Below are positions 14,053 through 55,596 of a stretch of DNA of 64,000 nt, piece after piece; position 1 is the first letter of the stretch; every line of letters begins with the position of its first letter. The notes beneath the pieces were generated by a model. That model did no database searches. It saw only the letters and a list, made by a program, of their open reading frames with translations, and had not been told where the DNA came from. Source of the DNA: an uncultured Desulfobacterales bacterium (GTDB taxonomy: Bacteria; Desulfobacterota; Desulfobaccia; Desulfobaccales; Desulfobaccaceae); contig CAYRYV010000013.1 of the NCBI GenBank assembly GCA_964428565.1, positions 1 through 64,000 on the forward strand. Direction: 5' to 3'. Position numbers and translations under genes: made by a program.

Positions 14053-14070
14053 GGGAGTTCCCTATTCCTG

Positions 14071-16089: not shown

Positions 16090-16195
16090 TTTTTCTCGAC
16101 TCCCACACATGGGGTGACCGTCGGCCAGGGCTCGCAGAGGGCGCTAAATATGACCATATATTGCACGTCCAGGTCAGGCCGTTTCGACATGGCCT

Positions 16196-16657: not shown

Positions 16658-16666
16658 CTCGTCTCC

Positions 16667-19600: not shown

Positions 19601-21211
19601 TTCGATGAGACCCCGCGGGGTAAGGTTGATGCCGTCCGCCTCGGTGAGAAAAGCGAGGTTGGTCTTCTGGCCGATGGCCATAATCACCACATCGGCATTC
19701 CGGGTGGTGGTTTTGTCTTCCCGATAGGTGGGAGCGAAACGCCCCTGTTCGTCAAAGACCCGTTCCACGGCCTTCAGTTCGAGGCCGCTGACCCGGCTTT
19801 CCCGGCCCAGAATCTGCTTGACGCCCCACCGATGGATAATCTCGACCCCTTCCTGTTCCGCCTCGGCCACTTCCCAAGGGGAAGCCGGCATCTCTTCCCG
19901 GGTTTCGAGGGCGATCAGAGTGACCTTGGCCCCTTGGCGCCGGGCCGTCCGGGCAACGTCCATAGCCACGTTGCCGCCGCCGATAACCGCCACCTGCTTG
20001 CCCTGAAAATCGAACTGCTGACCGGAAGCGGAATCCTTCAGGTACTCGACGCCCCAAAGGACTCCCTGAGCATCGGCCCCGGGCACCGGCAGACGGATGG
20101 AATCCTGGGCCCCCACGCCGATAAAGACCGCCCGGAAGCCCTTCTTGGTGAGCAGATCGTCTATGGTGTTGCCGGGGCCGCCGATGGGCGAGTTATACCG
20201 GATGTCCACTCCCAGGCGCTGGATGTAGTCAACTTCCCGTTGGAGGACTTCCCGGGGCAGGCGATACTCGGGGATGCCGTAGCGCAACCAACCGCCGGCT
20301 TCGGCGGCAGCCTCGAAAATTACCGCTTTATAGCCTTGGCGAGCCAGATGATAGGCGCAGCTTAAACCGGAAGGACCGGCCCCGATAATAGCCACGGACT
20401 CCTCCCGCGGCTGGATTTCAGGGATCGGCAACGCCTGCCAGTCCACGGCGTCGGCCACAAACCGCTTCAGGTTGCAGATGGCCACGGGCTCGTCCACTTC
20501 CTGTCGCCGGCAGTCGGACTCGCAGGGATGGGGACAAATGCGGCCGATGACGCCGGGCAGCGGCAGCCGGTCCATGATGAGGGACAGGGCCTCGGGAAAT
20601 TTCCCCGCCTTGATGAGCTGCACGTAGCCCTGCACGCTCAGATTCGCCGGACAGGCCCGCACGCAGGGAGCCCGGTCCAGTTTCTTGATGGCATAGTAGG
20701 CCGGAATCGCCTGGGGGAAGTGCCGGTAAGCGGCATGGCGCACGCCCAGGCCCTCATCAAAGGTCGAGGGCAGTTCCACCGGGCAGGCCTCCGAACAAGC
20801 CCCGCAGGCGTTGCATTTGGCCATGTCAATATAGCGGGGCTCCTGGCGAAGGGTGATGGTGAAATGGCCCGCCTCGCCCTCCACGCCGGCAATCTCAGAC
20901 TGGGTGACGATCTCAATGTCCGGGTGCCGGGCCACCTCAATAAGTTTAGGGGAGATCAAACAGGTGGAGCAGTCGTTGGTGGGGAAGGTCTTGTCCAACT
21001 GGGCCATGACCCCGCCGATGGAAATGTCTTTCTCCACCAGATAGACCTTAAAACCCGCATTTGCTGCGTCCAGGGCGGCCTGCATACCGGCGATACCGCC
21101 CCCCACCACCATAATGGCGCCGATTTTGGTCTTTGCAGTAGTCATAGATTTTTTTCGTCTGGAATTGGCGTGGGTATCCACTAGTGTAAGTTTTGCCCGG
21201 CGTTTCATCAC
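16667..21211 (-). CDS. Giant HdrA-like flavoprotein fusion (HdrL type): HdrA FAD/FeS domains, a GltD/NfnB-like NAD(P)H-binding domain, and a second HdrA-like module with C-terminal 2x[4Fe-4S]
   Basis: 1514 aa; repeated GxGxxG FAD motifs (VVGGGIAGM, IIGAGPSGL, VIGGGNVAM, VVGGGLAGL), many CxxCxxCxxxCP clusters, HdrA signature CVGSRD...CSxxCC twice; AAGGA SD; TGATGA overlap with the hdrB stop. Confidence 0.85.
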   Translation of the reverse strand: MMKRRAKLTLVDTHANSRRKKSMTTAKTKIGAIMVVGGGIAGMQAALDAANAGFKVYLVEKDISIGGVMAQLDKTFPTNDCSTCLISPKLIEVARHPDIEIVTQSEIAGVEGEAGHFTITLRQEPRYIDMAKCNACGACSEACPVELPSTFDEGLGVRHAAYRHFPQAIPAYYAIKKLDRAPCVRACPANLSVQGYVQLIKAGKFPEALSLIMDRLPLPGVIGRICPHPCESDCRRQEVDEPVAICNLKRFVADAVDWQALPIPEIQPREESVAIIGAGPSGLSCAYHLARQGYKAVIFEAAAEAGGWLRYGIPEYRLPREVLQREVDYIQRLGVDIRYNSPIGGPGNTIDDLLTKKGFRAVFIGVGAQDSIRLPVPGADAQGVLWGVEYLKDSASGQQFDFQGKQVAVIGGGNVAMDVARTARRQGAKVTLIALETREEMPASPWEVAEAEQEGVEIIHRWGVKQILGRESRVSGLELKAVERVFDEQGRFAPTYREDKTTTRNADVVIMAIGQKTNLAFLTEADGINLTPRGLIETDPVTLASGREGVFAGGDVVSGPYIAIAAVAAGREAALSIDRYLNGQDLREGRELPLRPVPPEQGNWLPVPDKLTPRRRAVMPELPHAEWVKGFQEINRGYPEAQAVAEAERCLNCGGCSECMQCVIACQAGAIDHSMQPRTRQLEVGAMILAPGFRPFDAGLKPEYGWGRYPNVVTSLQFERFLSATGPYDGHVLRPGDGKPPRRVAWIQCVGSRDASCGREYCSYVCCMYATKQAIIAQEHDHNIESTIFYIDLRAQGKGFDRYCERAKTDHRIRYIRAMVSRVAQDPSTQNLELSYADESGHIQTEVFDLVVLSVGLVPHPATKELAAHCAIDTDRWGFVVSPPLEQVSTSRPGAFTCGVFQSPKDIPETVGQASGAAGAAAALLAEARGTLLSKEEYPPEQEVSGAEPRIGVFICHCGINIAAVVDVAAVTDYARTLPHVVYADHYTFTCATDSLDNMREVIERENLNRIVVASCSPRTHESLFQENLRKAGLNKYLFEMANIRDQDSWVHQATPELATDKAKELVQMSVARAAILRPLDDLLFPVSQQALVVGGGLAGLTAALTIADSGYQVYLTEMGDRLGGSLARRMKRTLEGHEIQPYLEELVRRVENHPRIDWRVNTRVVDVSGSIGKFHSTLAAGDDRWEVDYGAAVIATGGVEYQPEEYLYGQDSRVLTQAEMESMLADRPQGLGSVPKVVMIQCVGSREPEHQYCSRTCCGEAIKNAITIKESNPAAQVFILYRDIRTYGLKELYYKKARDLGVQFVRFDPERKPEVEATDRGLQIKVFDQMLQAELALTADYLVLSAAIRPHPMSREIAKIFKLPFDADGFFMEAHLKLRPLDFASSGVFLCGLAHSPKFLEESLAQAKGAAGRALGVLSQEEMYVAGSVAQVNPLQCVACLTCARTCPYGVPKMDESEGVVFIDPAACQGCGNCASACPRKAIVVNHNLDEQFIAKIGAIGQSWPVAGVSAGS

Positions 21212-22053
21212 AACAATCCTTTATTCCGCAGTAAAGGCCGGGGGTCCACCAAATGGCGGGCCAGCCAGGCGGCGACCTCCGGGTGCCCCAGGGCCAGTCC
21301 GATCAGTTCGGTGAAATAGAACACCGGCAAGTAATAGTTCTTCCCTGCCTTCTTTGATATGCGGCCCTGGGAGAGGTCCAGATTGGCCTGGCACATCTGG
21401 CAGGCCACCACGAAACACTCGGCCCCGGCCGCCAGAGCCCGGTCATAGAGGCGCCCCACCAGAGTATCAATGAGATCCGGCCGGGCCATCGCCAGGCCGG
21501 CCCCGCAGCAGTCGGTCTTATAGGACCAGTCGAGAGGGTCGGCCTGCAGGACCTGAAGCAGGCGCTCCATATCCTTGGGGTTTTCGCAATCCACCTTATC
21601 CGTGATCTCCGGAGGCCGGGATGCCAGGCAACCGTAGTAGCCCACCGCCTTCAGACCGGTGAGGGGCCGTACCGTCTTCTGTTTCAGGATGGACAGAAAT
21701 GACTCCTGGGAGAGAAATTCCAATAGATCCCAGATCTTTGTCCCATTTTTCCGACCAACCGGAGTCTCTTGCCGGCGGTTCTGCTCCTTTTCGGCGGCCT
21801 TGAGGCGGTTGAAGCACAAGGCGCAGGGGACCACCAAATCCATACCGGTTTGCCGGGCCAACGCCAGGTTGCGAGCCGGCAGTTCCAAAGAGAGTCGATG
21901 GTTGATACTGTGAGCCGCGCTGGCGCCGCAGCAGTTCCAATCCTCCAGTTCCACCAACTGCAGGTCCACGAGGGGAGCGACAGCGGCAATGGAGGCAGCA
22001 TAATCCGCCGCAGTGCCTTCCAAAGAACAGCCGGGGTAATAAGATACCTTCAT
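21208..22053 (-). CDS. hdrB: Heterodisulfide reductase subunit B (two CCG domains)
   Basis: YYPGCS...CCGxxx and YYGC...CCGAG motifs; start at MKVSYYPGC (ATG 22053) after AAGG. Confidence 0.8.
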   Translation of the reverse strand: MKVSYYPGCSLEGTAADYAASIAAVAPLVDLQLVELEDWNCCGASAAHSINHRLSLELPARNLALARQTGMDLVVPCALCFNRLKAAEKEQNRRQETPVGRKNGTKIWDLLEFLSQESFLSILKQKTVRPLTGLKAVGYYGCLASRPPEITDKVDCENPKDMERLLQVLQADPLDWSYKTDCCGAGLAMARPDLIDTLVGRLYDRALAAGAECFVVACQMCQANLDLSQGRISKKAGKNYYLPVFYFTELIGLALGHPEVAAWLARHLVDPRPLLRNKGLL

Positions 22054-22060
22054 AAATGCC

Positions 22061-22642
22061 TTAACCCCCTGCACGTTTAAAGATTTCGTTGATTTCATCC
22101 CGCCCCTTGAGGGCTGGCGGGCCAATCGGGCGTAAGCGGCCGCGTTTGAAGAGGGCCCAACCCAACTTGGCATTTTCCCAAAGCTCCTGAAGTTGCGGTC
22201 GTCGCCGAAGTTGATACAGGGTGAAGCGGCGCATCAACGCCACCTCCGGCAAGCGGCCGCCAGCCCGACGGAGGCTGTCCAGGAAGAAGCGCTGGAAGGC
22301 CGCCACCTCCGGCTGGTCGACGGCTTTGCCCTGCCGAATCGCCTCCTCTTTGAGCCAGTCCATGACCCCGGCGATGTCAATGCCGTTGGGGCAGCGAGTG
22401 GTGCAGGTGACGCAGGAGGCGCAGACCCAGATGGTCCGGCAGCCCAGAAGCATCTCCGTCTGACCCAGGAGAGCCAGGCGTATGACCCGGTCCGGGAGCA
22501 GATCCATGGCGAAGGTCAGGGGACAACCGGCAGAACATTTCTTACATTGAAAGCAGGCGGACAATTGAATAGCGGCCTCTTGAGAGAGACGTTCCTGCAG
22601 TGAAAATGCCGGGGCCAGCGGTTGGTTGATATTGAGTTCCAT
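22061..22642 (-). CDS. hdrC: Heterodisulfide reductase subunit C (2x[4Fe-4S])
   Basis: CFQCKKCSAGCP and CASCVTCTTRCP ferredoxin motifs; SD AGGAG 9 nt before ATG 22642. Confidence 0.8.
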   Translation of the reverse strand: MELNINQPLAPAFSLQERLSQEAAIQLSACFQCKKCSAGCPLTFAMDLLPDRVIRLALLGQTEMLLGCRTIWVCASCVTCTTRCPNGIDIAGVMDWLKEEAIRQGKAVDQPEVAAFQRFFLDSLRRAGGRLPEVALMRRFTLYQLRRRPQLQELWENAKLGWALFKRGRLRPIGPPALKGRDEINEIFKRAGG

Positions 22643-22879
22643 GAAGACAGGCTCCTGATTATCGGTTGGCATCTATGCCCGGGTCAGACCCCATACATAA
22701 CACAAAACAGATTTCAGGCTGCCCGGGGCTTACAGGGCCTTAAAAATTCCTCCGGTCCACTTGGACCCGGACAAAATATATTGTTAATGCAATTTCGTTG
22801 CCATAATTTAAATAGCCGTGATATCGGCATCTTCATTATCAACAAGATGTCTGCCGGGACCGGAATTTGTCGAAATAAC

Positions 22880-22897
22880 CAACATAAGATTGTTCAG
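22880..22897. promoter_or_regulatory. Rex-like operator candidate TTGTTCAGAATTTCACAA in the hdrCB-hdrL-mvhD-metVF promoter region
   Basis: Matches the Rex consensus TTGTGAA-N4-TTCACAA at 12 of 14 defined positions; AT-rich promoter island. Confidence 0.35.
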
Positions 22898-22933
22898 AAT
22901 TTCACAACGTATTAATATTATTGAAATCTATCT

Positions 22934-22950
22934 TGTACAATAATTAAACA
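22934..22950. promoter_or_regulatory. TGTACAATAATTAAACA near-palindrome (second copy of the 12535 motif)
   Basis: 15/17 identity to the perfect palindrome at 12535-12551. Confidence 0.35.
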
Positions 22951-22982
22951 GGCCCCCGTTCCAGAAGGCGCTACGCCTCCAC

Positions 22983-23405
22983 CTAACGAACCGCAACCGC
23001 CCCGGTAGTCAAGACTGCTGCAATGGCCGCTTTGATCTCATCCTCGGTAAAAGGTTTTTGCAGATAGTCGGCAGCCCCCAATTTCAAGGCATCGACAGCG
23101 GAGGCCACGGTGGAATAACCGGTGATGACGATGACTCTGGTTTCGGGCCACTGCCGTCTCACCTCCTTGATGACCTCCATGCCATCAATATCCGGCAAAA
23201 GCAGGTCGGCCAAGATCAGATCATAAGATTTCCGGCGGAACATCTCCAGGGCCAGTTGGCCTGTTTGGGCCCAATCCACTTCATAACCGGCTTCGCCGAG
23301 GACCATTTGCAACCCTTTGGCCACATTGGTCTCATCTTCCATCAACAGAATTTTCGACAACGACGCCGTCTGGGGCCCGGCAGTTGGTGGCAAAGCACAC
23401 ATCAC
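22983..23405 (-). CDS. Single-domain response regulator (CheY-like receiver)
   Basis: KILLMEDE...DLILADLLLPDIDG...YLQKPF receiver motifs. Confidence 0.8.
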   Translation of the reverse strand: MMCALPPTAGPQTASLSKILLMEDETNVAKGLQMVLGEAGYEVDWAQTGQLALEMFRRKSYDLILADLLLPDIDGMEVIKEVRRQWPETRVIVITGYSTVASAVDALKLGAADYLQKPFTEDEIKAAIAAVLTTGAVAVR

Positions 23406-24522
23406 CTTTCCTCTGGGAAAAATGCACTCAGCTACAGGTTCAGCAATCTTCGTGCCTATCCCGGGAATTGGTCATTGTTTAATATTATTAGTTATAACTA
23501 ACAGTTAATAGAAAGAGGGGTGACGGGAAAGCGGGTAGCGTATGTTTATTTATACGGAACTGCAACGAGACATGGATTTTGACTAAATATATTATAATGT
23601 TATGTGGGTATAGAATAATATACACATACGCCGGGTTGCTGAATGCATCAGATAAAAAGGTCTCGCTTAGGTTCTCATACTGGAATTGGCGGCCCTTTGT
23701 TCCCCTCCTCGGGTTGGGGATAAACAAAAAAATTTAATCTTATCAAATTGATGGATTTTTTTTTAAAACCGCCCCCCGTTTTTCGGACATAAGTATTTCT
23801 TAAGCCGCCTGAGCGCTCGAGCCTGTGCGAGCCCTGCTGCCTTGGCCTGCCAGGGACTCAGAAAGGCGTTTGTTCCACCAGCCGCTCCCAAGTGGAGATG
23901 TTCACAAAGCCACGAATCGCTCCCCTCCTGAATGTTACAGAAAACTCGCCCGCAGATGACTCTCCCTCAGGTCCGGATGAGGGGATCGCCTTTACGGCCC
24001 TTCTCCCGGAAAAGCAGGTCCAGGGATTCGCCCGGAAGATACGCAGCACCGCCTCCCGTTTCCGGGAAGCCGTCCAACGTTGGCCCGGGGCCAATGGCCC
24101 CACCTCGTGCGTCAGGCCGCTTATGTGGTCGCCGTGGAGCGCGTCGTGGACGCGCTGAAACTCCGGGGCTGGGTTTAACCCGGGCCCAAGGAACCGATTA
24201 TGCTGGGTTCAGGGGAAAGAATCTGATAATATTTCTCTATCGTTGACAGCCTGCAATGCGGGCAATCAGCGCTGAGAGAGGAAATCCTTACTGGACAATC
24301 GCGTAGATTTCACTGCAAATCTGCTGTAGCACTCGTAAGGGGATGGTTTATCAAGATAATCTGAAAAGATTTCCCTGCCATCCCCTTATTCAGCTTTCTC
24401 ACGGGGGCGGGGGTGTCGGCAAAAGTTGTACCGGCTTAACCGATTATGGCGTAGAAATGGTACAATATGCTGTTCTTTCAGTATAATCTGGCCAACAGAC
24501 TTTTCATGAAATGAGGTGTTAC

Positions 24523-25371
24523 ATGGCAACTTATGATTTTGACAGAGTTATACACATGGCAATGCAGAAAGGCCCCATGCGGGTGATTGTCATTATCGGC
24601 ATTATTCTGTTGCTCTTTCTCTTTACACGTCCATGGGTTCAGGTCGGGGCGGGGGAAAGAGGAGTGGTCCTTAATTTCGGTGCGGTCCAGGAGTATGTTC
24701 TGGGAGAAGGGCTGCACTTCAGAATACCTGTCGTGCAGACGGTGGCCCTCATGGATGTCAAGGTGCAAAAATCCTTGACCAACGCCGCGGCCTCATCCTC
24801 CGATCTGCAGGAAGTCAGTTCGGAAGTGGCGCTCAATTATCACATAATTCCGGATAAGGCGAACATCGTCTATCAGACCATCGGCTTATACTTTAAAGAT
24901 CGCATCATTGATCCGGCAGTTCAGGAAGTGGTCAAGGCGGTGACGGCCAGGTACACCGCCGAAGAGTTGATTACCAAGCGGCCGGCGGTAAGCGAAGCCA
25001 TGCGGACTACCCTGAGTGAAAGACTCCTGGAGCATAATATCGCAGTTGATGCCTTCTCCATCGTCGGGTTCAGCTTCTCCAAGATCTTTATGGAAGCCAT
25101 CGAGGCCAAACAGACGGCCGAACAGCTTGCCCTCAAGGCGCGCCGGGACTTGGAGCGGATTAAGATCGAGGCTGAACAAAAGATTACCGCGGCCACGGCA
25201 GAAGCGGAGTCCTTGCGGCTTCAGCGGGCCAATATCTCTCCCGATCTGATCGAGTTGCGCAGAGTTGAGGCCAATCTCAGGGCCATAGAGAAGTGGAACG
25301 GCATTCTACCGCAAGTTACCGGTGGCGGCGCAGTGCCGTTTATCGGCATCGGGGAAACGCCGAGGCGATAA
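24523..25371 (+). CDS. SPFH/band-7 (prohibitin-like) membrane protein
   Basis: N-terminal TM helix, SPFH core, C-terminal coiled-coil (EAIEAKQTAEQLALKARRDLERIKIEAEQ); SD GAGGTG; lower GC. Confidence 0.8.
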   Translation: MATYDFDRVIHMAMQKGPMRVIVIIGIILLLFLFTRPWVQVGAGERGVVLNFGAVQEYVLGEGLHFRIPVVQTVALMDVKVQKSLTNAAASSSDLQEVSSEVALNYHIIPDKANIVYQTIGLYFKDRIIDPAVQEVVKAVTARYTAEELITKRPAVSEAMRTTLSERLLEHNIAVDAFSIVGFSFSKIFMEAIEAKQTAEQLALKARRDLERIKIEAEQKITAATAEAESLRLQRANISPDLIELRRVEANLRAIEKWNGILPQVTGGGAVPFIGIGETPRR

Positions 25372-25397
25372 TCGAAAAAACTGAAACGGGTGAGCAA

Positions 25398-25690
25398 TGC
25401 TGCAAGCCCAGATGATAGGCAGCGGCATACCGGCGTTGGACGAAATCCTGGATGGGCTGCGGTGGGGGGATAATGTCGTCTGGCAGGTGGATGGACTTGA
25501 TACTTACCTGAGAGTGGCCCTTTGTCCGGCAGGCCCTGCAAGACCGCCGTACAGCCATCTACATGCGTTTTAGCCTGGATGCCAATATCCTCGAACCGCT
25601 TTCCGGGTATATCACCGAAGAAGTTGGCCCCCGACCCGGTTTTGAGTCGTGCGGCTTTTTGAATGGTATGCCACCGGAAAATACTCACTG
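25398..25690 (+). pseudogene. Decayed, frameshifted fragments of an ATPase-like gene (remnant of a RecA/KaiC-superfamily GIPALDEIL..GL motif) next to the tRNA pair
   Basis: Short ORF MLQAQMIGSGIPALDEILDGLRWGDNVVW... continues in another frame and lacks a P-loop; no intact gene. Confidence 0.3.
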
Positions 25691-25853
25691 AAACAGCGGA
25701 AGCTTCTGGATTTCATACGTTCGAACTGCACGTTATAAGGATGGCGAGCTGCAGCCGGAGTTCAGGCAACCATTTGATATGATTTTCAAATATAGCCAGG
25801 AAGCCGAAAAAGAAAAAGCAGAAAATCCTGATGGTCTTCCGCCTTTGGAGGTA

Positions 25854-25931
25854 TGGCGTCCCCAACCGGATTTGAACCGGTGTTGCCGGCGTGAAAGGCC
25901 GGTGTCCTGGACCAGGCTAGACGATGGGGAC
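25854..25931 (-). tRNA. tRNA-Glu (anticodon UUC)
   Basis: Cloverleaf read by hand: acceptor GUCCCCA/UGGGGAC, anticodon loop CUUUCAC, T-loop UUCAAAU, CCA encoded; close match to E. coli tRNA-Glu. Confidence 0.85.
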
Positions 25932-25936
25932 GCTTG

Positions 25937-26012
25937 TGGTGGGCCGTGTTGGACTCGAACCAACGACTCTCTGCTTAAAAGGCAGATACTCTACCGACTG
26001 AGTTAACGGCCC
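25937..26012 (-). tRNA. tRNA-Lys (anticodon UUU)
   Basis: GGGCCGU...ACGGCCC acceptor, anticodon loop CUUUUAA, T-loop UUCGAGU, CCA encoded; 5 nt from tRNA-Glu. Confidence 0.85.
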
Positions 26013-26409
26013 AAACATAATATTCATAAACTGCGCTCCGCTGTTTGTCAAGGCAATCTGCGGAGTTCTTATGCGTTAACCCAGCGGTTCGGGCCGAGTT
26101 GATTGGGGGAGAATATACCCGATCGTCTCCGTGAAGGCAAGCAGTAAAGTGCAGGTTTGTCAACAGCACGTCCAGATGTCCGGTTTTCATGGCACAGGTA
26201 CTGTCCGGTTGACTTTTGGGAAGAGTTCTCATGTCATCGCGAGGTCACACTGGATGACCGGGCCACGCCGGGGAGCGACCCGGGAGCCGGAGTGAGCCCG
26301 GGGATGGAAGAGCAGCACGTTTCCCATTGCCAAGTTTTCCCCTCTGCGCGACCCCCCGGGCGATGGAATCCGGGGTTCTGAGGGCTGGCCCTCAGGGTGG
26401 CGCACCCGG

Positions 26410-30193: not shown

Positions 30194-30397
30194 TCAACCC
30201 AAATCGAGGACATGGATGCAATGCACCGGGCACTGAGCGACGGCGTCCTGGATGATGTCGGCGGCACCCTCTGCGGGGCGGATGACCCGGGCGTATCCCA
30301 CTGACTTGTCCACCCGGAAGACCTCCGGGCACACGCCCTGACATCCGCCGCAGGTGATGCACTCCTGCCTCACCACCACGACATACCGTTTGCCCAT
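30194..30397 (-). CDS. Small [4Fe-4S]/[3Fe-4S] ferredoxin
   Basis: CITCGGCQGVCP...CP, 67 aa. Confidence 0.8.
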   Translation of the reverse strand: MGKRYVVVVRQECITCGGCQGVCPEVFRVDKSVGYARVIRPAEGAADIIQDAVAQCPVHCIHVLDLG

Positions 30398-30404
30398 CTG
30401 CCCG

Positions 30405-30914
30405 TTACCCTTGCTCTGGCCGGTCCCGCAGGGCCAGCCGGTCTTCGAGTTCCCGGAGGCGTCGCTTCATGTTCCGGTCCTGTTCCCACCGGGCCGTAAC
30501 TTCTCGCAAGATCGCGGCGACCCCCATGAGCCCATCGTCCCCCGCCGCCGGCACCGGGATAACCGTGAATTCCACGGAGAGCCGGCGGCCGTCCCGGTGC
30601 ATCGCCGGCACCGTTAGCAGCTCCCGGCCGTAGCGGGTGACCCCGCCGGCCATCACCCGGCGGTAACCATCCCAATGGCGCTGACGCAGATTTTCCGGAA
30701 TAATGATATCCAGACTCCGGCCCACGGCCTCGGCCTCCCGGAATCCGAAGACCGCCTCGGCCCCGGCGTTCCAGAGCCGGATGATCCCCTCCCGGTCGGC
30801 AAAGATTATGGCGTCCGGGGCGCCCGCCACGATGCGGCGACAGAGATATCCCCGGTCCTCAGTGGGCACGTCCGCCCTCCCGGCCTGCAGGCCCGGCCCT
30901 GGCCCGTCGGCCAT
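30405..30914 (-). CDS. Single PAS-domain protein
   Basis: IIFADREGIIRLWNAGAEAVFGF...GRRLSVEFTV PAS-fold pattern; N-terminal extent uncertain. Confidence 0.65.
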   Translation of the reverse strand: MADGPGPGLQAGRADVPTEDRGYLCRRIVAGAPDAIIFADREGIIRLWNAGAEAVFGFREAEAVGRSLDIIIPENLRQRHWDGYRRVMAGGVTRYGRELLTVPAMHRDGRRLSVEFTVIPVPAAGDDGLMGVAAILREVTARWEQDRNMKRRLRELEDRLALRDRPEQG

Positions 30915-30947
30915 CGTTTGTTCCCGTAAGTGACGGCTCGGTCCGGC

Positions 30948-31151
30948 TCAGTTTTCTTCCTGCCAGTGAATGCACTGCGCCGGGCACTGGTCAATGGCAT
31001 CCTGGATCAAGTCCTCCGGGGCGCCGTCGGGATCGATCACCGTGGAATGTCCCAGCGCCTCGTTGAGCTTGAAGACCTGGGGGCAGACGGCTTCGCAGTT
31101 GCCGCAGGCGATGCATTCTTCCTTGACGATGTAGGGGAAACGTTTCGGCAT
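30948..31151 (-). CDS. Small ferredoxin, paralogue of 30194-30397
   Basis: CIACGNCEAVCP...CP, 67 aa, ~50% identity to the other ferredoxin. Confidence 0.8.
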   Translation of the reverse strand: MPKRFPYIVKEECIACGNCEAVCPQVFKLNEALGHSTVIDPDGAPEDLIQDAIDQCPAQCIHWQEEN

Positions 31152-31243
31152 CTTCGTTTTCCTGTGATGGTCGTCTTCGTATGCGGGTTGGCTGAAAAGT
31201 AAGGATGCGGCCCCCGGATGTCAATGGGAAAGTCGGCCTGGCC

Positions 31244-32170
31244 TCAAGGAGACTCGCATTGCAGGCCGATAACTTCGTACAAGGTGTATTCCCCGGTCTT
31301 GCCGGGGAACCGCAGGCTGGCGCAGCGGCCCACCTTGACGCTCTCCTGCACCTGGGCGTAGATGTCGGCGGAAACGAGAAAATGCGTCCCGAGCTGTTTG
31401 TTGGCGGCCTCGATGCGGCTGGCGACATTGACGGCGTCGCCGATGATCGTGGTCTTCTTGCGCCCTGCCGCGCCCACCGTGCCCGCCACGACATCCCCGA
31501 AATGCAGGCCGATGCGGATGGCAAAATCCTTGTGAAAGAGTTCCTGGAGATAGGGCCGGAGTTTCTCGATCTCCTCCAGCATCTCCAGACCCGCCTGCAC
31601 GGCCCGTAGCGCCCCCCGGCGCGGACTCTCGCCCTCGAACCGGGCCATGAACCCGTCTCCCAGATACGTGTCGATATGGCCGCCATGGCGGCTGATCACT
31701 TCCCCCATGCTATGAAAGAAGTGGTTCAGGACGTGAATGACATCGTAGGGCAACAGATTCTCGGAAAAGGCGGTAAAGCCGATGATGTCGGCGAACATGA
31801 TGTGGATTTCCTTCTCCACGCCGGTGGTGCCGGTCTCCGGCCCCACCACGTAGAGGCTGGCAACCTCGCTTTTTTCCCCGTTTTCCTGAACCAGACGGCG
31901 CACGCTGACATCTCCGTGCACGCGCGCCTGGCATCCCAGGCGCACACCCGGCGCGAAGCGGAGGCGTCGAGCCACGGCCTGCTCCTCCTTTCCGGGAGGG
32001 GAGAGATGCTCCCGGCCCTGGACGATCTCCACGCGACAGGTGGAGCAGCGCGCCCGCCCGCCACAGATATGAGCTATAACCTGGCCCGTCCGCAGGGCTG
32101 CATCCACGATGGTTTCCCCGGAGACGGCCTCCACTTCTCCGCCCTCCGGGACAAAGACGATTTTGGGCAT
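31244..32170 (-). CDS. Plant-type [2Fe-2S] ferredoxin domain fused to a class III adenylate/guanylate cyclase catalytic domain
   Basis: N-terminus PKIVFVPEGGEV...CGGRARCSTCRV...C ([2Fe-2S] Fdx fold); C-terminus FADIIGFT...YLGDGFMA...GLHFGDVVAG (CYC domain). Confidence 0.8.
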   Translation of the reverse strand: MPKIVFVPEGGEVEAVSGETIVDAALRTGQVIAHICGGRARCSTCRVEIVQGREHLSPPGKEEQAVARRLRFAPGVRLGCQARVHGDVSVRRLVQENGEKSEVASLYVVGPETGTTGVEKEIHIMFADIIGFTAFSENLLPYDVIHVLNHFFHSMGEVISRHGGHIDTYLGDGFMARFEGESPRRGALRAVQAGLEMLEEIEKLRPYLQELFHKDFAIRIGLHFGDVVAGTVGAAGRKKTTIIGDAVNVASRIEAANKQLGTHFLVSADIYAQVQESVKVGRCASLRFPGKTGEYTLYEVIGLQCESP

Positions 32171-32296
32171 GGTCTGCTGGACTCCCGCTCCCGGTGAGCA
32201 AATATTGCTGCCCTCACCGGAGGTTCATGATAAGATGTTTGGTGTAAGCATTGATAATATAATTCTTTACAGACCGGGGGGCTACAGGAAAACTGC

Positions 32297-33457
32297 ATGT
32301 TTTCATCTACCACCCCAATGCGCTGCAGCCGCCGTCAATTTATCCGGGCCGGCCTGGCCTCGTTGGCCGCGTTGTCCCTGCCCGCCTGGCCGACTCTCTC
32401 CTGGGGTCAGGGAGTGCGCTTCGGCCTGGTCAACCCCCGGCCGGCCGCCTTTTTTACCCCGCTTCCCGGCGGTCTGGTGCGCTGCGACCTCTGCCCCCAC
32501 CAGTGCGAGACGGTGGACGGCGAACGGGGCGACTGCGGCGTGCGGGAGAACCGCCAGGGCAAATATGTCACCCTGGCCTACGGCAACCCTTGCGCCGTGC
32601 ACATCGACCCCATCGAAAAAAAACCCTTGTTCCATGTCCTGCCCGGGAGCGACTCCTACTCCATCGCCACGGCGGGCTGCAATCTGCATTGCAAATTCTG
32701 CCAGAATTGGGAGATCTCCCAGGTGCGGCCCGAAGAAACCTACAATTTCGACCTGTCTCCGGCGGCCATCGTCCAGGCCGCCCGGGACACCAACTGCCCC
32801 ACCATCGCCCACACCTACGTGGAACCCATTATCTTCTATGAATACATGGAGGAGATCGGACGTCTGTCGAAGCCCGCGGGCATTATCAACGTCTGCCATT
32901 CCGCCGGTTACATAAATGAAAAACCGCTCCACGCCCTCTGTGAGGTGCTGCAGGCGGCCTGCGTGGACCTGAAGGCCTTCACCGAGGACTTTTATCGGCA
33001 GATGGTGGGGGCGTCCCTGGCGCCGGTGCTGGCCGCCCTCAAAACCCTGCGGCGCCGGGGGGTATACCTGGAGATCGTCAACCTGGTTATTCCGCAATAC
33101 AACGATAACCCCAGGGATCTGGAAAAGATGTGCGCCTGGATCAAAGACGAATTGGGGGAGTTGACGCCTTTGCATTTCTCCCGCTTCTATCCCCTTTACA
33201 AAATGAAGAATCACTATCCCACTCCGGTGGCGACCCTGGAACAGGCCCGGCAAATCGCTCTGCAGGCCGGTTTGAAATACGTCTATATCGGCAATGTCCG
33301 GGAGAACCCGGCGGAAAATACCCTATGTCACCATTGCGGGCAGCTCATAATCGCGCGCCTGGGGTATCGGGTAATGGAAATCAAGATGAAAGAGGGGACC
33401 TGTGGCTTCTGCGGGACCGAGATTCCCGGGATCTGGCGGCAACCGTCAGCCGTTTAG
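32297..33457 (+). CDS. AmmeMemoRadiSam-system-type radical SAM enzyme, predicted with an N-terminal twin-arginine (Tat) signal
   Basis: VRCDLCPHQCETVDGERGDCGVR + CNLHCKFCQNW (CxxxCxxC) radical SAM core; N-terminus MRCSRRQFIRAGLASLAALSLPAWP resembles a Tat signal. Confidence 0.7.
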   Translation: MFSSTTPMRCSRRQFIRAGLASLAALSLPAWPTLSWGQGVRFGLVNPRPAAFFTPLPGGLVRCDLCPHQCETVDGERGDCGVRENRQGKYVTLAYGNPCAVHIDPIEKKPLFHVLPGSDSYSIATAGCNLHCKFCQNWEISQVRPEETYNFDLSPAAIVQAARDTNCPTIAHTYVEPIIFYEYMEEIGRLSKPAGIINVCHSAGYINEKPLHALCEVLQAACVDLKAFTEDFYRQMVGASLAPVLAALKTLRRRGVYLEIVNLVIPQYNDNPRDLEKMCAWIKDELGELTPLHFSRFYPLYKMKNHYPTPVATLEQARQIALQAGLKYVYIGNVRENPAENTLCHHCGQLIIARLGYRVMEIKMKEGTCGFCGTEIPGIWRQPSAV

Positions 33458-33805
33458 GGCTCAGGTCCAGATCGGGCCGTTCTCCTTTTTTCATGTCTGC
33501 AGTGGCAACGAATCCCGCTTTTCAAGGGGTTGGCCGGTTCTCCCCATCAGACCCGACAGCTGGCGGGAGGTTGGCAAAGCCCTGGCGGCGCCGGGCGGGA
33601 AAGAACCCCAGCTCTTTCTTGGCCACCGGCAAAGCAGCCGCGCGGTCCCGGGGAAGATTTTACGCAGGTCCAGTATTAAAGGGGAACAGACATTGTGCCG
33701 ATGACAACGCGAAGTTAAACTCTCAATATGCATTTACTGGCTGGCCATTGCGCCGCCGCTAGTCTGAATCGAATGAGGTCTGTATCGGCCCGGAAGGAAA
33801 TCCCC

Positions 33806-34957
33806 ATGCATGCGCTCACCCCTTCTCCCCAGGACAGTTACTTTGCGCCGCCGGAGCGCGCCGACGCCGAACTATTACGCCTGGAAGTCGAAGTCACCAG
33901 TAAAAATCCCATCATCGACGGCCTCTTGAAAACTGTCGGCGGCCTGCTGGCGGTGCTCAATGAACAGCGGCAAATTCTGGCCCTTAACGACACGCTGCTG
34001 TCCAGTTTGGGCCTGGAAGACGTGCATCAGGCTTTGGGTCTGCGTCCCGGTGAAGCCATTAACTGCATCCACGCCCGTGAGCTTCCCGGCGGTTGCGGCA
34101 CCACCAAGTTTTGCGCCAGTTGCGGGGCCGCCATCGCCATCGTGTCCTGTATGGAGAGTGACCACCCGGAGGAGCGGTTCTGTGTGGCCACCGCGAAAAG
34201 ACAGGACAAGGAAGTGGATATTTGTTTCAGCGTGCGCGCCTGTCCCGCCAGACTGGAGGGGCATCGCTTTATCCTGTTATTTCTCCAGGACTGCACCCAG
34301 GCCCAACAGCAGGCGGCCTTTATGCGCGTCTTTTTTCATGATATCACCAATATCATTCATGGCGTGCAGAACGTCGGCGATTTACTGGCGCTGCCGGACG
34401 CCGCCCCCAGCCCTGAAATCACCAACCTCCTCCAGTATTACCTCACCCGGCTGACCACCGAAGTGAAAATTCACCAGATCCTGTTTAAAGACGGCGAGAT
34501 GGACTATAAGCCCCGCTGGCAGACGGTCTCGGTCAGATCGGTGCTGCAGGAAATCCAGCGGTATTTTTCCCTGCATCCCTTGACGCAGGGCAAACGCCTC
34601 GTCATCGCCGACGACTTGCCGGCCGACTCCTTCCAGACGGACATCACCCTGCTGTTGCGCATTCTCGGCAACATGCTAACCAATGCCCTGGAGGCCGCCG
34701 AGCCCGGCGATGAAGTCAAATTATGGGTCGAGCCGCAGCCGCAAGCCCTCTCTTTTTGCGTCTGGAACCGCCAGCCGATCCCCGAAAAGGTGGCCCTGCG
34801 GATATTTCAACGCAACTTCAGCACGAAATATGAATCCGGGCGGGGCTGGGGCACCTTCGCCATGAAGCTGTTCGGCGAGCGGATTCTGGGCGGCCGGGTA
34901 AGCTTCACCACCTCCGAGGCCGCCGGCACCGTATTTCGCTTCTCCCATCCGCAATGA
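33806..34957 (+). CDS. Sensor histidine kinase with an N-terminal Cys-rich sensor domain
   Basis: FFHDITNIIHG (H-box), LGNMLTNALEA, GxGWG ATP-lid; sensor has CGTTKFCASCGAAIAIVSC. Confidence 0.7.
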   Translation: MHALTPSPQDSYFAPPERADAELLRLEVEVTSKNPIIDGLLKTVGGLLAVLNEQRQILALNDTLLSSLGLEDVHQALGLRPGEAINCIHARELPGGCGTTKFCASCGAAIAIVSCMESDHPEERFCVATAKRQDKEVDICFSVRACPARLEGHRFILLFLQDCTQAQQQAAFMRVFFHDITNIIHGVQNVGDLLALPDAAPSPEITNLLQYYLTRLTTEVKIHQILFKDGEMDYKPRWQTVSVRSVLQEIQRYFSLHPLTQGKRLVIADDLPADSFQTDITLLLRILGNMLTNALEAAEPGDEVKLWVEPQPQALSFCVWNRQPIPEKVALRIFQRNFSTKYESGRGWGTFAMKLFGERILGGRVSFTTSEAAGTVFRFSHPQ

Positions 34958-55091: not shown

Positions 55092-55251
55092 AATGTCCTC
55101 GTCGGGGGTGAACGGGTGGGCGCCGGGGTCGGGCAGGGGAACGGTGCCCCGAACCTCCCCCGCCTCGCCGGCCGCCAGCTCACTGTATACCAGGAAACCG
55201 GCAACGCCTGCAACCTCCGCGCCGCGGCCGCCGTTTTCCCGCCCCCCCGCC

Positions 55252-55581: not shown

Positions 55582-55596
55582 GACCGCCGCTCCTCC

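What the first reader, a model, noticed from the sequence alone, without database searches (positions are those of the whole stretch)
30194..32170. Ferredoxin - PAS - ferredoxin - [2Fe-2S]ferredoxin::adenylate-cyclase module
A class III nucleotidyl cyclase catalytic domain is fused N-terminally to a plant-type [2Fe-2S] ferredoxin fold. It is flanked by two paralogous small ferredoxins and a stand-alone PAS protein, all on the same strand. The arrangement suggests cAMP (or cGMP) synthesis gated by the redox state of a ferredoxin pool, which would be a direct cluster-to-second-messenger coupling.
Basis: partly seen in the sequence, partly recalled or inferred. Interest (0 to 1): 0.55.

Follow-up and report, generated by a model that had tools for sequence, protein, structure and literature searches.

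The report
Ferredoxin-linked iron-sulfur nucleotide cyclase operon
A sulfate-reducer-like anaerobe encodes a soluble signalling enzyme in which an iron-sulfur ferredoxin domain is fused to a cyclic-nucleotide cyclase, next to two small ferredoxins and a probable haem sensor. It is a real, probably redox-controlled switch, but a soluble variant of a known type rather than a new principle.

Summary
Four co-directional minus-strand genes fill 30194-32170: a 308-aa Fer2::class III cyclase fusion, a 67-aa [4Fe-4S]-type ferredoxin (FdA), a stand-alone PAS protein, and a second ferredoxin (FdB, 48% identical to FdA).

In all 120 closest homologues the four cluster cysteines, both metal aspartates, the transition-state Asn/Arg and the class IIIb Thr are invariant. 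Two details are off:
- The Fer2 domain is adrenodoxin/ISC-type (Cx5Cx2Cx34C), not plant-type.
- The purine-specifying Lys is replaced by Thr (Asn/Thr/Ser/Ala in the family), so "adenylate" cyclase is unproven.

The redox-gating idea is supported only indirectly. Fer4_13 ferredoxins lie next to the cyclase in 4 of 9 informative contexts, and in one relative the ferredoxin is fused in frame. The Fer2-cyclase cassette is elsewhere fused to Rieske, CDGSH, FNR-like, globin and haem-b membrane domains.

The principle has a precedent. Sinorhizobium meliloti CyaC is a dihaem-B/[2Fe-2S] class III adenylate cyclase that is switched on by oxidation. The PAS gene is lineage-specific; a hemerythrin takes a similar place in another relative. 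No cNMP receptor is encoded in the window.

Verdict: a soluble, ferredoxin-coupled variant of a known kind, of moderate interest.

The parts
32171..32296 (.). Divergent intergenic region between the cyclase operon (minus strand) and an AmmeMemoRadiSam radical-SAM gene (plus strand). It presumably holds both promoters. It contains an AT-rich block (ATTATATTAT ... TTAYCATGAAC) shared with relative L087, and a perfect 8-bp inverted repeat CCGGTGAG-N14-CTCACCGG at 32191-32220 in the cyclase leader.
   Evidence: Sequence, alignment with L087, inverted repeat. The consensus scan found no sigma-70 promoter. The promoter role is inferred.
31892..32170 (-). Cyclase gene, residues 1-93: N-terminal adrenodoxin/ISC-type [2Fe-2S] ferredoxin (Fer2) domain. 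Predicted ligands are C36, C42, C45 and C80.
   Evidence: Pfam Fer2 E 2.2e-10. NCBIfam fdx_isc is the best hit. PDB 1I7H at E 6e-13 with all four Cys aligned to its ligands. The Cys are invariant in 120 of 120 homologues.
31820..31891 (-). Cyclase gene, residues 94-117: conserved linker between the Fer2 and cyclase domains. R91, R92, E99, L106, G117 and E119 are invariant in the 25-sequence alignment. This is the presumed signal-transmission segment.
   Evidence: Alignment A1. pLDDT is below 50 in the AlphaFold model, so the relative domain orientation is unresolved.
31244..31819 (-). Cyclase gene, residues 118-308 plus stop codon: class III (IIIb-like) nucleotidyl cyclase catalytic domain. 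Metal Asp D128 and D172, transition-state N248 and R252, phosphate Lys K291, class IIIb Thr T241. T168 occupies the position of the purine-specifying Lys.
   Evidence: Pfam Guanylate_cyc E 2.3e-23. Alignments to 2W01, OaPAC and CyaB. Foldseek top hits Cya2, Spirulina CyaC, OaPAC and CyaB. Residue census over 120 homologues.
30948..31151 (-). FdA: 67-aa single-cluster ferredoxin of the Desulfovibrio africanus Fd I type (CxxCxxC...CP, predicted [4Fe-4S]). It is the proposed redox partner of the Fer2 domain.
   Evidence: Pfam Fer4_13 E 1e-14. PDB 1FXR/1DAX at E 1.3e-13. Orthologues lie next to the cyclase in L087 (83% identical, in frame), L082 (72%) and L100 (71%).
30405..30914 (-). Stand-alone PAS protein with a FixL/DosP-like predicted haem pocket; H80 aligns with FixL His200. 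The likely true start is GTG at 30869, giving 154 aa.
   Evidence: Pfam PAS_4/PAS/PAS_9. All top PDB hits are haem-PAS proteins: FixL at 6e-11, and DosP. H80 and R77, R79, W81, R94, Y95 are invariant in 20 homologues. The gene is not conserved in this position in relatives.
30194..30397 (-). FdB: 67-aa paralogue of FdA (48% identity) with the same CxxCxxC...CP motif. It starts 7 nt after the PAS stop codon.
   Evidence: Pfam Fer4_13 E 2.4e-12, BLASTP E 4e-26. An orthologue follows FdA directly in L087 (58% identity).

Best explanation
The 308-aa protein is a soluble homodimeric class III (IIIb-like) nucleotide cyclase. Its N-terminal adrenodoxin-type domain carries a [2Fe-2S] cluster that acts as a redox input.

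Proposed mechanism:
1. The cluster exchanges electrons with low-potential soluble [4Fe-4S] ferredoxins, namely FdA and FdB encoded immediately downstream.
2. The oxidation state of the cluster is relayed through the conserved roughly 25-residue linker to the cyclase dimer, setting its activity.
3. By analogy with S. meliloti CyaC, the oxidised state is expected to be the active one.
4. The cell thereby converts the redox state of a ferredoxin pool into a cyclic-nucleotide signal, most likely cAMP. That pool would report electron-donor supply, or exposure of a strict anaerobe to O2 or NO.
5. The signal is read by receptors encoded outside this window.

The FixL-like PAS protein is a lineage-specific accessory input. 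A hemerythrin occupies a comparable place in another relative.

Shown: domain composition, intact ligand and catalytic residues, family-wide conservation, operon-like arrangement, recurrent ferredoxin adjacency and fusions.

Inferred: cluster binding, electron transfer, direction of regulation, the product, and the role of the PAS protein.
For: - Domains and residues. The four Cys, D128, D172, T241, N248, R252 and K291 are invariant in 120 of 120 homologues.
- The gene spacing is compatible with one transcript. Gaps are 92, 33 (or 78) and 7 nt, with no terminator on the coding strand.
- Fer4_13 ferredoxins lie directly beside the cyclase in four contexts, in different arrangements. Downstream pair: the window and L087. 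Single upstream: L082. Upstream pair: L100.
- A rubredoxin-like CxxC...CxxC protein follows the cyclase in L095.
- In L087 the cyclase ORF runs in frame into FdA. It is catalogued as one 394-aa protein with Fer2 + Guanylate_cyc + Fer4_13.
- The Fer2-cyclase cassette is fused in other lineages to Rieske, CDGSH, FNR-like NAD-binding, globin and ferric-reductase-type haem-b membrane domains. It is also fused to a His-rich 6TM anchor in rhizobial CyaC-like proteins, which carry the same CGGxxxCSTCRV...RLxCQ motif and are 37.6% identical over residues 10-273.
- CyaC is experimentally a dihaem-B/[2Fe-2S] adenylate cyclase activated by oxidation (PMC10463352, PMC9552081).
- The host is a ferredoxin-centred anaerobe. 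The window holds HdrA/MvhD/MetF-type genes, and RuvB is 80% identical to that of a Desulfobacca MAG.
- O2/NO-related neighbours occur near the same ferredoxin cassette: hemerythrin in L100 and NorB in L091.
Against: - There is no direct evidence for cluster binding, electron transfer or redox control.
- Ferredoxin adjacency is absent from 4 of 9 informative contexts: L083, L085, L094 and L096.
- The same cupin-Fd-Fd cassette occurs without any cyclase next to NorB (L091), so the ferredoxins are not dedicated partners.
- The window and L087 share their arrangement by descent, so independent observations are few.
- The L087 fusion could simply be a lost stop codon. An AGGAG Shine-Dalgarno and an ATG are retained before the ferredoxin part.
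- The linker and inter-domain geometry are not resolved in the model.
- The missing purine-binding Lys leaves the product open.
- No cNMP-binding or CRP-type gene was found among the roughly 50 ORFs of 112 aa or more (plus the two 67-aa ferredoxins) that were scanned in the window.
Confidence: 0.55

Rival explanations
1. Cluster-integrity or occupancy sensor. The [2Fe-2S] cluster does not cycle between redox states as the signal. Instead it is destroyed, nitrosylated or not assembled under O2, NO, ROS or iron/sulfur limitation. The holo-to-apo transition switches the cyclase, as in FNR-, IscR- and NsrR-style sensing. The neighbouring ferredoxins would be bystanders or repair and reduction partners.
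For: - The host is a strict-anaerobe-type organism.
- O2/NO-related proteins accompany the cassette: a FixL-like PAS here, hemerythrin in L100 and NorB next to the same ferredoxin pair in L091.
- The FeoAB iron-uptake genes are in the window, although 26 kb away.
- Many homologues have no ferredoxin neighbour.
Against: - Adrenodoxin-type [2Fe-2S] clusters with four Cys ligands are typically stable electron carriers (established knowledge of the family).
- The repeated fusion to bona fide electron-transfer modules (FNR-like, Rieske, CDGSH, haem-b anchors) points to electron flow.
- The one studied relative, CyaC, responds reversibly to quinone oxidation and reduction (PMC10463352).
Confidence: 0.2
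2. The Fer2 domain is a constitutive structural or dimerisation module, or a general electron-transfer appendage, with no regulatory role. The ferredoxin and PAS genes are simply neighbours in a ferredoxin-rich genome.
For: - Gene contexts of homologues are variable.
- PAS homologues occur in unrelated contexts.
- The ferredoxin pair is a mobile generic cassette.
- AlphaFold gives no confident inter-domain interface.
Against: - The four Cys and the linker residues are invariant across 120 homologues at only 54-62% overall identity.
- The two-domain cassette persists across many phyla: Thermodesulfobacteriota, Poribacteria, Cyanobacteria, Planctomycetota, Alphaproteobacteria and Bacteroidota.
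- It attracts further redox domains.
- Ferredoxin adjacency recurs in three different arrangements.
- N-terminal domains of class III cyclases are generally regulatory (established knowledge).
Confidence: 0.15
3. The enzyme is redox-regulated as proposed, but its product is not cAMP. The position of the ATP-specifying Lys is Thr (Asn/Thr/Ser/Ala in the family), so the clade may make cGMP, a pyrimidine cNMP, or have relaxed specificity. This rival concerns the output only and is compatible with the best explanation for the input.
For: - The census of position 168 gives N 81, T 25, S 11, A 3, and never K or E.
- More distant soluble Fer2-cyclases show K, N or D at this position.
- The closest solved structure is the guanylyl cyclase Cya2 (2W01).
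- PADLOC PycC (pyrimidine cyclase) models score up to 105 bits, above the Pfam model.
Against: - The GC-type Glu is also absent.
- There is no resemblance to the R-x-Q or Y/D/R specificity residues described for PycC (PMC11224242).
- No CNBD effector is adjacent, so this is not a Pycsar system.
- T241 is the class IIIb adenylate-cyclase hallmark.
- Mycobacterial cyclases with Asn or Gln at the Lys position (Rv1900c, Rv0386) are still mainly adenylate cyclases (my own knowledge, not re-checked here).
- The related CyaC makes cAMP, not cGMP (my recollection of the Wissig et al. 2019 abstract; that paper was not held).
Confidence: 0.25

Closest known systems
Sinorhizobium meliloti CyaC (SMc01818) and CyaC-like 6TM-ferredoxin class IIIb adenylate cyclases of alpha- and beta-proteobacteria (Beltz et al. 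2016, PMC4821796; Wissig et al. 2019, as cited in PMC10463352 and PMC9552081)
   Same: - The Fer2-cyclase two-domain cassette is homologous. The Cys motif is the same (CGGxxxCSTCRV...RLxCQ).
- The window protein is 37.6% identical over residues 10-273 to the R. etli p42e CyaC-like protein.
- Both have the class IIIb Thr and an intact catalytic core.
- For CyaC, a [2Fe-2S] cluster and redox-dependent adenylate cyclase activity are shown experimentally.
   Different: - The window protein begins at the Fer2 domain and has no 6TM dihaem-B anchor, so quinones cannot be its input. Separate soluble [4Fe-4S] ferredoxins are the candidate partners.
- CyaC-like proteins keep the canonical Lys (LDKFIGDG). 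The window clade has Thr, Asn, Ser or Ala there.
- The host is an anaerobic member of the Thermodesulfobacteriota, not an aerobic rhizobium.
Soluble class IIIb cyclases with N-terminal sensor domains (OaPAC/bPAC BLUF-cyclases, Spirulina CyaC, P. aeruginosa CyaB, Synechocystis Cya2)
   Same: - These are the best sequence and fold matches of the catalytic domain.
- They share the layout of an N-terminal sensor followed by a C-terminal homodimeric cyclase domain.
   Different: - The sensor here is an Fe-S ferredoxin domain rather than BLUF, GAF or PAS.
- The linker is short and not predicted to be a long coiled coil.
- The specificity residue differs: K in the adenylate cyclases, E in Cya2, T here.
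Adrenodoxin / ISC-type [2Fe-2S] ferredoxins (E. coli Fdx 1I7H, adrenodoxin, putidaredoxin, terpredoxin)
   Same: - The fold family, the Cx5Cx2Cx34-36C ligand spacing and the residues around the ligands match.
- NCBIfam fdx_isc is the best hit.
   Different: - The score is far below the equivalog cut-off (45 versus 132 bits), so it is not an ISC ferredoxin orthologue.
- It is a fused domain, not a free carrier.
Desulfovibrio africanus ferredoxin I / D. gigas ferredoxin II (single-cluster Fer4_13 ferredoxins)
   Same: FdA and FdB share the length, the CxxCxxC...CP motif and the C-terminal CP(V/A)QCIHW motif. The PDB hit 1FXR has E 1.3e-13.
   Different: - They are encoded as a tandem or split pair beside a signalling enzyme.
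- Two extra Cys (C23, C60) are present.
- The cluster type ([4Fe-4S] versus [3Fe-4S]) is not determined.
FixL / DosP haem-PAS oxygen sensors
   Same: - These are the best structural-sequence relatives of the PAS protein.
- The motif P-x3-R-x-R-H-x2-Y contains the aligned proximal His.
   Different: - The PAS protein stands alone at about 150 aa, with no kinase or phosphodiesterase output.
- The distal-pocket residues do not align cleanly.
- Haem binding is untested.

Membership tests
Class III nucleotidyl cyclase (cyclase homology domain, PF00211) | Profile match above the curated threshold | tested here: met
   83.2 bits against a cut-off of 21.9, residues 120-290.
Class III nucleotidyl cyclase (cyclase homology domain, PF00211) | Two metal-binding aspartates | tested here: met
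   D128 (FADIIGFT) and D172 (LGDGF) align with the metal Asp of 2W01 and OaPAC. Both are invariant in 120 of 120 homologues.
Class III nucleotidyl cyclase (cyclase homology domain, PF00211) | Transition-state Asn and Arg (GDxVNxAxR) | tested here: met
   N248 and R252 are invariant in 120 of 120 homologues.
Class III nucleotidyl cyclase (cyclase homology domain, PF00211) | Purine-specifying residue: Lys for adenylate cyclases, Glu for guanylate cyclases, four residues before the second metal Asp | tested here: not met
   T168 in the window. The family has N 81, T 25, S 11, A 3, and never K or E. This bears on the label 'adenylate cyclase', not on membership of the fold family.
Class III nucleotidyl cyclase (cyclase homology domain, PF00211) | Class IIIb hallmark: Thr in place of the second specificity Asp | tested here: met
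   T241 aligns with the Thr of OaPAC. It is invariant in 120 of 120 homologues.
Class III nucleotidyl cyclase (cyclase homology domain, PF00211) | Head-to-tail homodimer with cyclase activity | not testable with these tools
   Only a monomer model could be built. No assay is possible.
Adrenodoxin/ISC-type [2Fe-2S] ferredoxin (PF00111 Fer2) | Profile match above threshold and four Cys ligands with Cx5Cx2Cx~35C spacing | tested here: met
   Fer2 at 40.7 bits against a cut-off of 21. C36, C42, C45 and C80 align with the ligand Cys of E. coli Fdx 1I7H and are invariant in 120 of 120 homologues.
Adrenodoxin/ISC-type [2Fe-2S] ferredoxin (PF00111 Fer2) | Actual binding of a [2Fe-2S] cluster | not testable with these tools
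   Inferred from the ligands and from the [2Fe-2S] cluster reported for CyaC (PMC10463352).
   The spacing is Cx5Cx2Cx34C. The best-scoring PDB relatives are mostly ISC Fdx, adrenodoxin, putidaredoxin and terpredoxin.
CyaC-type redox-regulated adenylate cyclase (6TM dihaem-B + Fer2 + cyclase) | Homologous Fer2-cyclase cassette | tested here: met
   37.6% identity over residues 10-273 to the R. etli p42e 570-aa CyaC-like protein, with the same Cys motif.
CyaC-type redox-regulated adenylate cyclase (6TM dihaem-B + Fer2 + cyclase) | N-terminal hexahelical membrane anchor with four haem-ligating His | tested here: not met
   The ORF starts at the Fer2 domain and the reading frame is closed upstream of Met1. 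The same holds for 13 soluble homologues.
CyaC-type redox-regulated adenylate cyclase (6TM dihaem-B + Fer2 + cyclase) | Redox-dependent activity | not testable with these tools
   This needs biochemistry.
FixL/DosP-type haem-b PAS domain (the PAS protein) | PAS fold with the proximal His in the F-helix motif | tested here: met
   H80 aligns with FixL His200 and is invariant in 20 of 20 homologues.
FixL/DosP-type haem-b PAS domain (the PAS protein) | Distal-pocket residues (FixL Arg220, DosP Met95) and haem binding | tested here: inconclusive
   An Arg lies one position out of register in the alignment. Haem binding is untestable here.
Single-cluster Fer4_13 ferredoxin (D. africanus Fd I type) | CxxCxxC...CP motif, about 60-aa length, profile match | tested here: met
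   FdA 55.4 bits and FdB 47.8 bits against a cut-off of 24.5. PDB 1FXR at E 1.3e-13.
Pycsar anti-phage system | PycC cyclase plus an adjacent effector with a cyclic-nucleotide-binding domain (PycTM or PycTIR) | tested here: not met
   PycC HMMs hit the cyclase domain (E 9e-31), as expected for any class III cyclase. No CNBD, TIR or TM effector lies in the operon or among the window ORFs scanned.

The most novel reading that the evidence does not exclude
The soluble Fer2-cyclase clade of anaerobic Thermodesulfobacteriota has lost the purine-binding Lys. Together with a dedicated pair of [4Fe-4S] ferredoxins and interchangeable O2/NO-binding proteins, it would form a previously unrecognised 'oxidant alarm'. 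The interchangeable proteins are a FixL-like haem-PAS here and a hemerythrin in L100; the same ferredoxin cassette flanks NorB in L091. In this reading, oxidation of a specific ferredoxin pool switches on synthesis of a cyclic nucleotide whose identity may not be cAMP.
Probability: 0.15. Interest if true: 0.65.

Novelty: new variant of a known kind. Interest (0 to 1): 0.4.

Why it matters
In anaerobes that live on low-potential electron carriers, it is largely unknown how the redox state of the ferredoxin pool is reported to gene regulation. A soluble cyclase with a built-in [2Fe-2S] domain, encoded beside its likely ferredoxin partners, offers a simple system that can be tested in vitro. It comprises one 308-aa protein and two 67-aa ferredoxins.

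Such a system would extend the quinone-coupled CyaC paradigm to the cytoplasmic ferredoxin pool. The family is large (hundreds of 50%-identity clusters across many phyla). It is repeatedly wired to other redox domains, so a mechanism worked out for one member would probably generalise.

The consistent loss of the canonical ATP-binding Lys also makes the clade a useful test case for how class III cyclases select their nucleotide.

Tried and rejected
- **Genome-collection scan with the family alignment.** It returned distant full-length Fer2-cyclases but none of the close Thermodesulfobacteriota relatives.
- **Metagenome scan with the single protein.** It gave only one close relative (L087).
- **Context survey.** Because of the two points above, it relied on 12 exact-protein look-ups and is small (9 informative loci).
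- **AlphaFold monomer.** pLDDT is 76, but the linker (94-117) and cluster loop (34-41) are below 50, so there is no usable inter-domain geometry. A homodimer could not be submitted.
- **Foldseek.** It only re-identified the cyclase domain.
- **Promoter and terminator scan.** It found nothing usable on the coding strand.
- **Pycsar membership.** Considered because PycC HMMs score highly. Rejected for lack of any CNBD effector and no match to the published PycC specificity residues (PMC11224242).
- **ISC-system ferredoxin orthology.** Rejected: 45 bits against a cut-off of 132.
- **A cNMP receptor in the window.** Pfam was run on about 50 ORFs, all of 112 aa or more apart from the two 67-aa ferredoxins. 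No cNMP_binding or CRP hit appeared. The other short ORFs were not scanned.
- **PAS gene as a conserved member of the module.** Rejected. It is absent in L087, and PAS homologues in L097 and L098 have unrelated neighbours.
- **Literature searches.** They found no paper on a soluble Fer2-cyclase. Wissig et al. 2019 itself is not held and is cited second-hand.


Full report
**1. What is in the sequence**

Between 30194 and 32170 the minus strand carries four ORFs in one direction.

| Coordinates | Length | Pfam result |
|---|---|---|
| 31244-32170 | 308 aa | Fer2 at residues 8-84 (E 2.2e-10); Guanylate_cyc at 120-290 (E 2.3e-23) |
| 30948-31151 | 67 aa (FdA) | Fer4_13, E 1e-14 |
| 30405-30914 | 169 aa | PAS_4 / PAS / PAS_9 |
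| 30194-30397 | 67 aa (FdB) | Fer4_13, E 2.4e-12 |

All four matches are above Pfam's thresholds. Independent gene calling on another contig of the same organism gives the same four genes. Gaps between the genes are 92, 33 and 7 nt. No terminator-like site lies on the coding strand. The cluster therefore looks like an operon, transcribed from the 126-bp region it shares with a divergent radical-SAM gene.

The PAS gene probably starts at GTG 30869 rather than ATG 30914. A GGAGGG lies 5 nt upstream of that GTG, and homologues begin at that point. FdA and FdB are 48% identical.

**2. The fusion protein**

*The ferredoxin domain.* Its closest solved relatives are mostly adrenodoxin/ISC-type:
- E. 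coli ISC ferredoxin 1I7H, E 6e-13;
- a Rhodopseudomonas ferredoxin, yeast Etp1, adrenodoxin, terpredoxin and putidaredoxin.

C36, C42, C45 and C80 align with the cluster ligands. The spacing is Cx5Cx2Cx34C, which is the adrenodoxin/ISC pattern and not the plant-type Cx4Cx2Cx29C. NCBIfam fdx_isc is the best hit but falls far below its cut-off. The domain is of that type but is not an orthologue of the ISC ferredoxin.

*The cyclase domain.* It matches class IIIb enzymes best: Cya2 (2W01), the BLUF cyclases OaPAC and bPAC, P. aeruginosa CyaB and Spirulina CyaC.

*Conservation.* In an alignment of the 120 best homologues, which are 54-62% identical to the query, these positions are invariant:
- the four Cys;
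- metal-binding D128 and D172;
- T241, the class IIIb substitute for the specificity Asp;
- N248 and R252;
- K291.

*One real deviation.* The residue four positions before D172 is Lys in adenylate cyclases and Glu in guanylate cyclases. Here it is T168. Across the family it is Asn (81), Thr (25), Ser (11) or Ala (3), and never Lys or Glu. The nucleotide specificity cannot be read from the sequence.

*Structure model.* The AlphaFold model is confident for both domains but not for the linker at residues 94-117. That linker nevertheless contains invariant residues R91, R92, E99, L106, G117 and E119.

**3. How common the fusion is, and its relatives**

- All 120 best hits have the same Fer2 + cyclase architecture at about 305 aa. 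Most come from metagenomes. Where named, they come from Deltaproteobacteria/Thermodesulfobacteriota MAGs and are called only 'adenylate cyclase' or 'adenylate/guanylate cyclase domain-containing protein'.
- An exhaustive search of 50%-identity representatives finds 517 clusters at E <= 1e-30.
- Full-length soluble versions occur in Poribacteria, a cyanobacterium (Tychonema), Planctomycetota, SAR116, Mesorhizobium/Sinorhizobium and Bacteroidota (Maribacter, Hymenobacter).

The two-domain cassette also appears with additional redox modules:

| Extra module | Examples |
|---|---|
| C-terminal Rieske | P0250, P0343, P0259, P0256 |
| C-terminal CDGSH | P0336 |
| C-terminal FNR-like NAD-binding domain | P0257, P0264 |
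| Four N-terminal CDGSH domains plus C-terminal Rieske | P0281 |
| N-terminal ferric-reductase-type haem-b membrane domain | P0300 |
| Globin | P0339 |
| His-rich 6TM anchor (rhizobial plasmids, e.g. the R. etli p42e 570-aa protein) | L092 |

**4. Known precedent**

The Schultz and Lupas groups described a cluster of alpha- and beta-proteobacterial class IIIb adenylate cyclases. These have a ferredoxin between a cytochrome-b-like 6TM anchor and the catalytic domain (PMC4821796). S. meliloti CyaC is reported to carry two haem B and a [2Fe-2S]2+ cluster, and to be activated by oxidation through quinones (PMC10463352, PMC9552081, both citing Wissig et al. 2019, which I could not read).

The R. 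etli CyaC-like protein shares the window protein's Cys motif (CGGxxxCSTCRV...RLxCQ). It is 37.6% identical over residues 10-273, but it keeps the canonical Lys.

Coupling of a [2Fe-2S] cluster to a cyclase is therefore an established principle. What differs here:
- there is no membrane anchor, because the ORF is closed upstream of Met1;
- the Lys is lost;
- the neighbours are different.

I found no paper on a soluble Fer2-cyclase. The library is incomplete, so this is not proof of absence.

**5. The neighbours**

*The ferredoxins.* FdA is closest to Desulfovibrio africanus ferredoxin I (1FXR, E 1.3e-13) and D. gigas ferredoxin II. Both FdA and FdB have the full CxxCxxC...CP motif.

*The PAS protein.* Its best solved relatives are all haem-PAS sensors: FixL at 6e-11, and DosP. 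H80 aligns with the proximal His200 of FixL. That His, and the surrounding R-x-R-H-W...R-Y motif, are invariant in 20 homologues of a large family of stand-alone PAS proteins of about 150 aa. Haem binding is likely but unproven.

*Contexts of cyclase homologues:*

| Locus | Identity to window cyclase | Arrangement |
|---|---|---|
| L087 | 74% | Same divergent radical-SAM gene, then cyclase-FdA(83%)-FdB(58%), no PAS. The cyclase ORF continues in frame into FdA. Gene callers list one 394-aa protein (P0125) with Fer2 + cyclase + Fer4_13. An AGGAG/ATG is retained before the ferredoxin part, so the fusion is equivocal. |
| L082 | 62% | An FdA orthologue (72%) lies 48 nt upstream. |
| L100 | 61% | hemerythrin - cupin-like - Fer4_13 - Fer4_13 (71% to FdA) - cyclase, all on one strand. 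|
| L095 | 60% | A 58-aa CxxC...CxxC rubredoxin-like protein follows. |
| L083, L085, L094, L096 | 57-62% | No small redox protein adjacent. |
| L099 | 61% | Cut off upstream, so uninformative. |

The same cupin-Fd-Fd cassette lies next to NorB, without a cyclase, in L091. PAS homologues in L097 and L098 have unrelated neighbours.

In summary:
- Ferredoxin adjacency recurs in 4 of 9 informative contexts and in three different arrangements, but it is not universal.
- The PAS gene is a lineage-specific insertion between the two ferredoxins.
- Proteins related to O2 or NO (haem-PAS, hemerythrin, NorB) recur around the ferredoxin cassette.

**6. The host**

RuvB is 80% identical to that of a Desulfobacca MAG. 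The other named hits are Desulfobacteraceae, Syntrophales and Thermodesulfobacteriota. The window also encodes the following:
- HdrA-like, MvhD/FlpD, HdrB-like and MetF-type proteins;
- FeoAB;
- APS kinase.

This points to an anaerobe whose metabolism depends on low-potential ferredoxin. No cNMP-binding or CRP-type protein was found among about 50 scanned ORFs, all of 112 aa or more apart from the two 67-aa ferredoxins.

**7. Most likely mechanism (confidence about 0.55)**

The protein is a homodimeric class IIIb-like cyclase. Its N-terminal [2Fe-2S] domain is reduced and oxidised by soluble ferredoxins (FdA/FdB). The redox state of the cluster is relayed through the conserved linker to the catalytic dimer. 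By analogy with CyaC, the oxidised state would be the active one. The output is most likely cAMP.

- Shown: the anatomy, the conservation, the adjacency and the fusions.
- Inferred: cluster binding, electron transfer, the sign of regulation, the product and the role of the PAS protein.

My own knowledge of the families puts the midpoint potentials of adrenodoxin/ISC-type [2Fe-2S] ferredoxins and D. africanus-type [4Fe-4S] ferredoxins in a similar low range, roughly -270 to -400 mV. Electron exchange between them is therefore plausible. This was not tested here.

Rivals:
- Cluster loss or damage, rather than redox cycling, is the signal (0.2).
- The Fer2 domain is non-regulatory and the neighbours are incidental (0.15).
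- On the output side only, the product is not cAMP (0.25; compatible with the main model).

A Pycsar-type defence role is rejected. PycC profiles hit the domain generically, but no effector is present. The PycC specificity residues described in PMC11224242 are also absent.

**8. Verdict**

It needs four corrections:
- The ferredoxin is adrenodoxin-type, not plant-type.
- The nucleotide is uncertain.
- The PAS gene is not a conserved part of the module.
- The principle is already known from CyaC.

It is best described as a soluble, ferredoxin-coupled variant of the known [2Fe-2S]-containing redox-regulated class III cyclases. It belongs to a large, uncharacterised and phylogenetically wide family. 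Interest is moderate at 0.4. The value lies in a compact, testable system for ferredoxin-pool sensing in anaerobes, and in the unusual specificity residue.

Noticed in passing
L087:4001-5185 (relative of window 30948-32170): In the closest relative (74% identity) there is no stop codon between the cyclase and FdA. A 394-aa Fer2 + cyclase + Fer4_13 protein (P0125) is catalogued. An AGGAG Shine-Dalgarno and an ATG are still present before the ferredoxin part. This could be a true fusion, a lost stop codon or an assembly error.
   Followed up: partly
window 30869-30914: The PAS ORF is probably annotated 15 codons too long. GTG at 30869 is preceded by GGAGGG at a 5-nt spacing, and homologues start at the equivalent residue.
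   Followed up: partly
window 32297-33457 (+): AmmeMemoRadiSam-system radical SAM enzyme (TIGR04337, E 1.5e-111) with a twin-arginine-like N-terminus (SRRQFIRAGLASLAAL). It is transcribed divergently from the cyclase, and this arrangement is conserved in L087 (79% identity). No AMMECR1 or Memo partner was seen nearby.
   Followed up: no
window 33728-34957 (+): Histidine kinase (HATPase_c) whose N-terminal half has no Pfam match but is Cys-rich (CIHARELPGGCGTTKFCASCGAAIAIVSC). It may be a metal- or Fe-S-binding sensor domain.
   Followed up: no
window 12790-22173 (-): Cluster of electron-bifurcation-type genes: a 1514-aa HdrA/GltD-like polyflavoprotein with Fer4 domains, an HdrB-like CCG protein, MvhD/FlpD, a MetF-type methylenetetrahydrofolate reductase and a further FAD/Fer4 protein. 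This fits a Wood-Ljungdahl-type anaerobe.
   Followed up: no
window 9386-12325 (-): A 979-aa protein that combines Fer4, MvhD/FlpD, a molybdopterin-dinucleotide-binding domain and a glycine-cleavage H-protein (lipoyl carrier) domain. This is an unusual combination.
   Followed up: no
L091:1-3189 and L100:17-2537: A conserved cupin-like protein plus two Fer4_13 ferredoxins forms a cassette. It lies next to NorB (nitric-oxide reductase) in one organism. In another it lies next to a hemerythrin and the Fer2-cyclase. This hints at a link to O2/NO handling.
   Followed up: partly
L004, L006-L010, L012 (alphaproteobacterial loci); P0250, P0257, P0281, P0300, P0336, P0339: The Fer2-cyclase cassette occurs fused to Rieske, FNR-like NAD-binding, CDGSH, ferric-reductase-type membrane and globin domains. 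The residue at the purine-Lys position varies between lineages (K, N, D, T, S, A, and R in L012).
   Followed up: partly
window 22000-26100: A low-GC stretch (0.52-0.53 against about 0.63 elsewhere). It contains a stand-alone response regulator, an SPFH/Band 7 protein and adjacent tRNA-Glu(TTC) and tRNA-Lys(TTT) genes at 25854-26012.
   Followed up: no
window 53358-55091 (-) and 58005-59195 (-): A YcaO-TPR fusion protein and a nearby radical SAM enzyme. Two large ORFs without Pfam matches (55084-57883) lie between them.
   Followed up: no
window 32191-32220: A perfect 8-bp inverted repeat CCGGTGAG-N14-CTCACCGG lies in the leader of the cyclase gene. It is not obviously conserved in L087. Its function is unknown; it could be an operator or an RNA hairpin.
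   Followed up: partly
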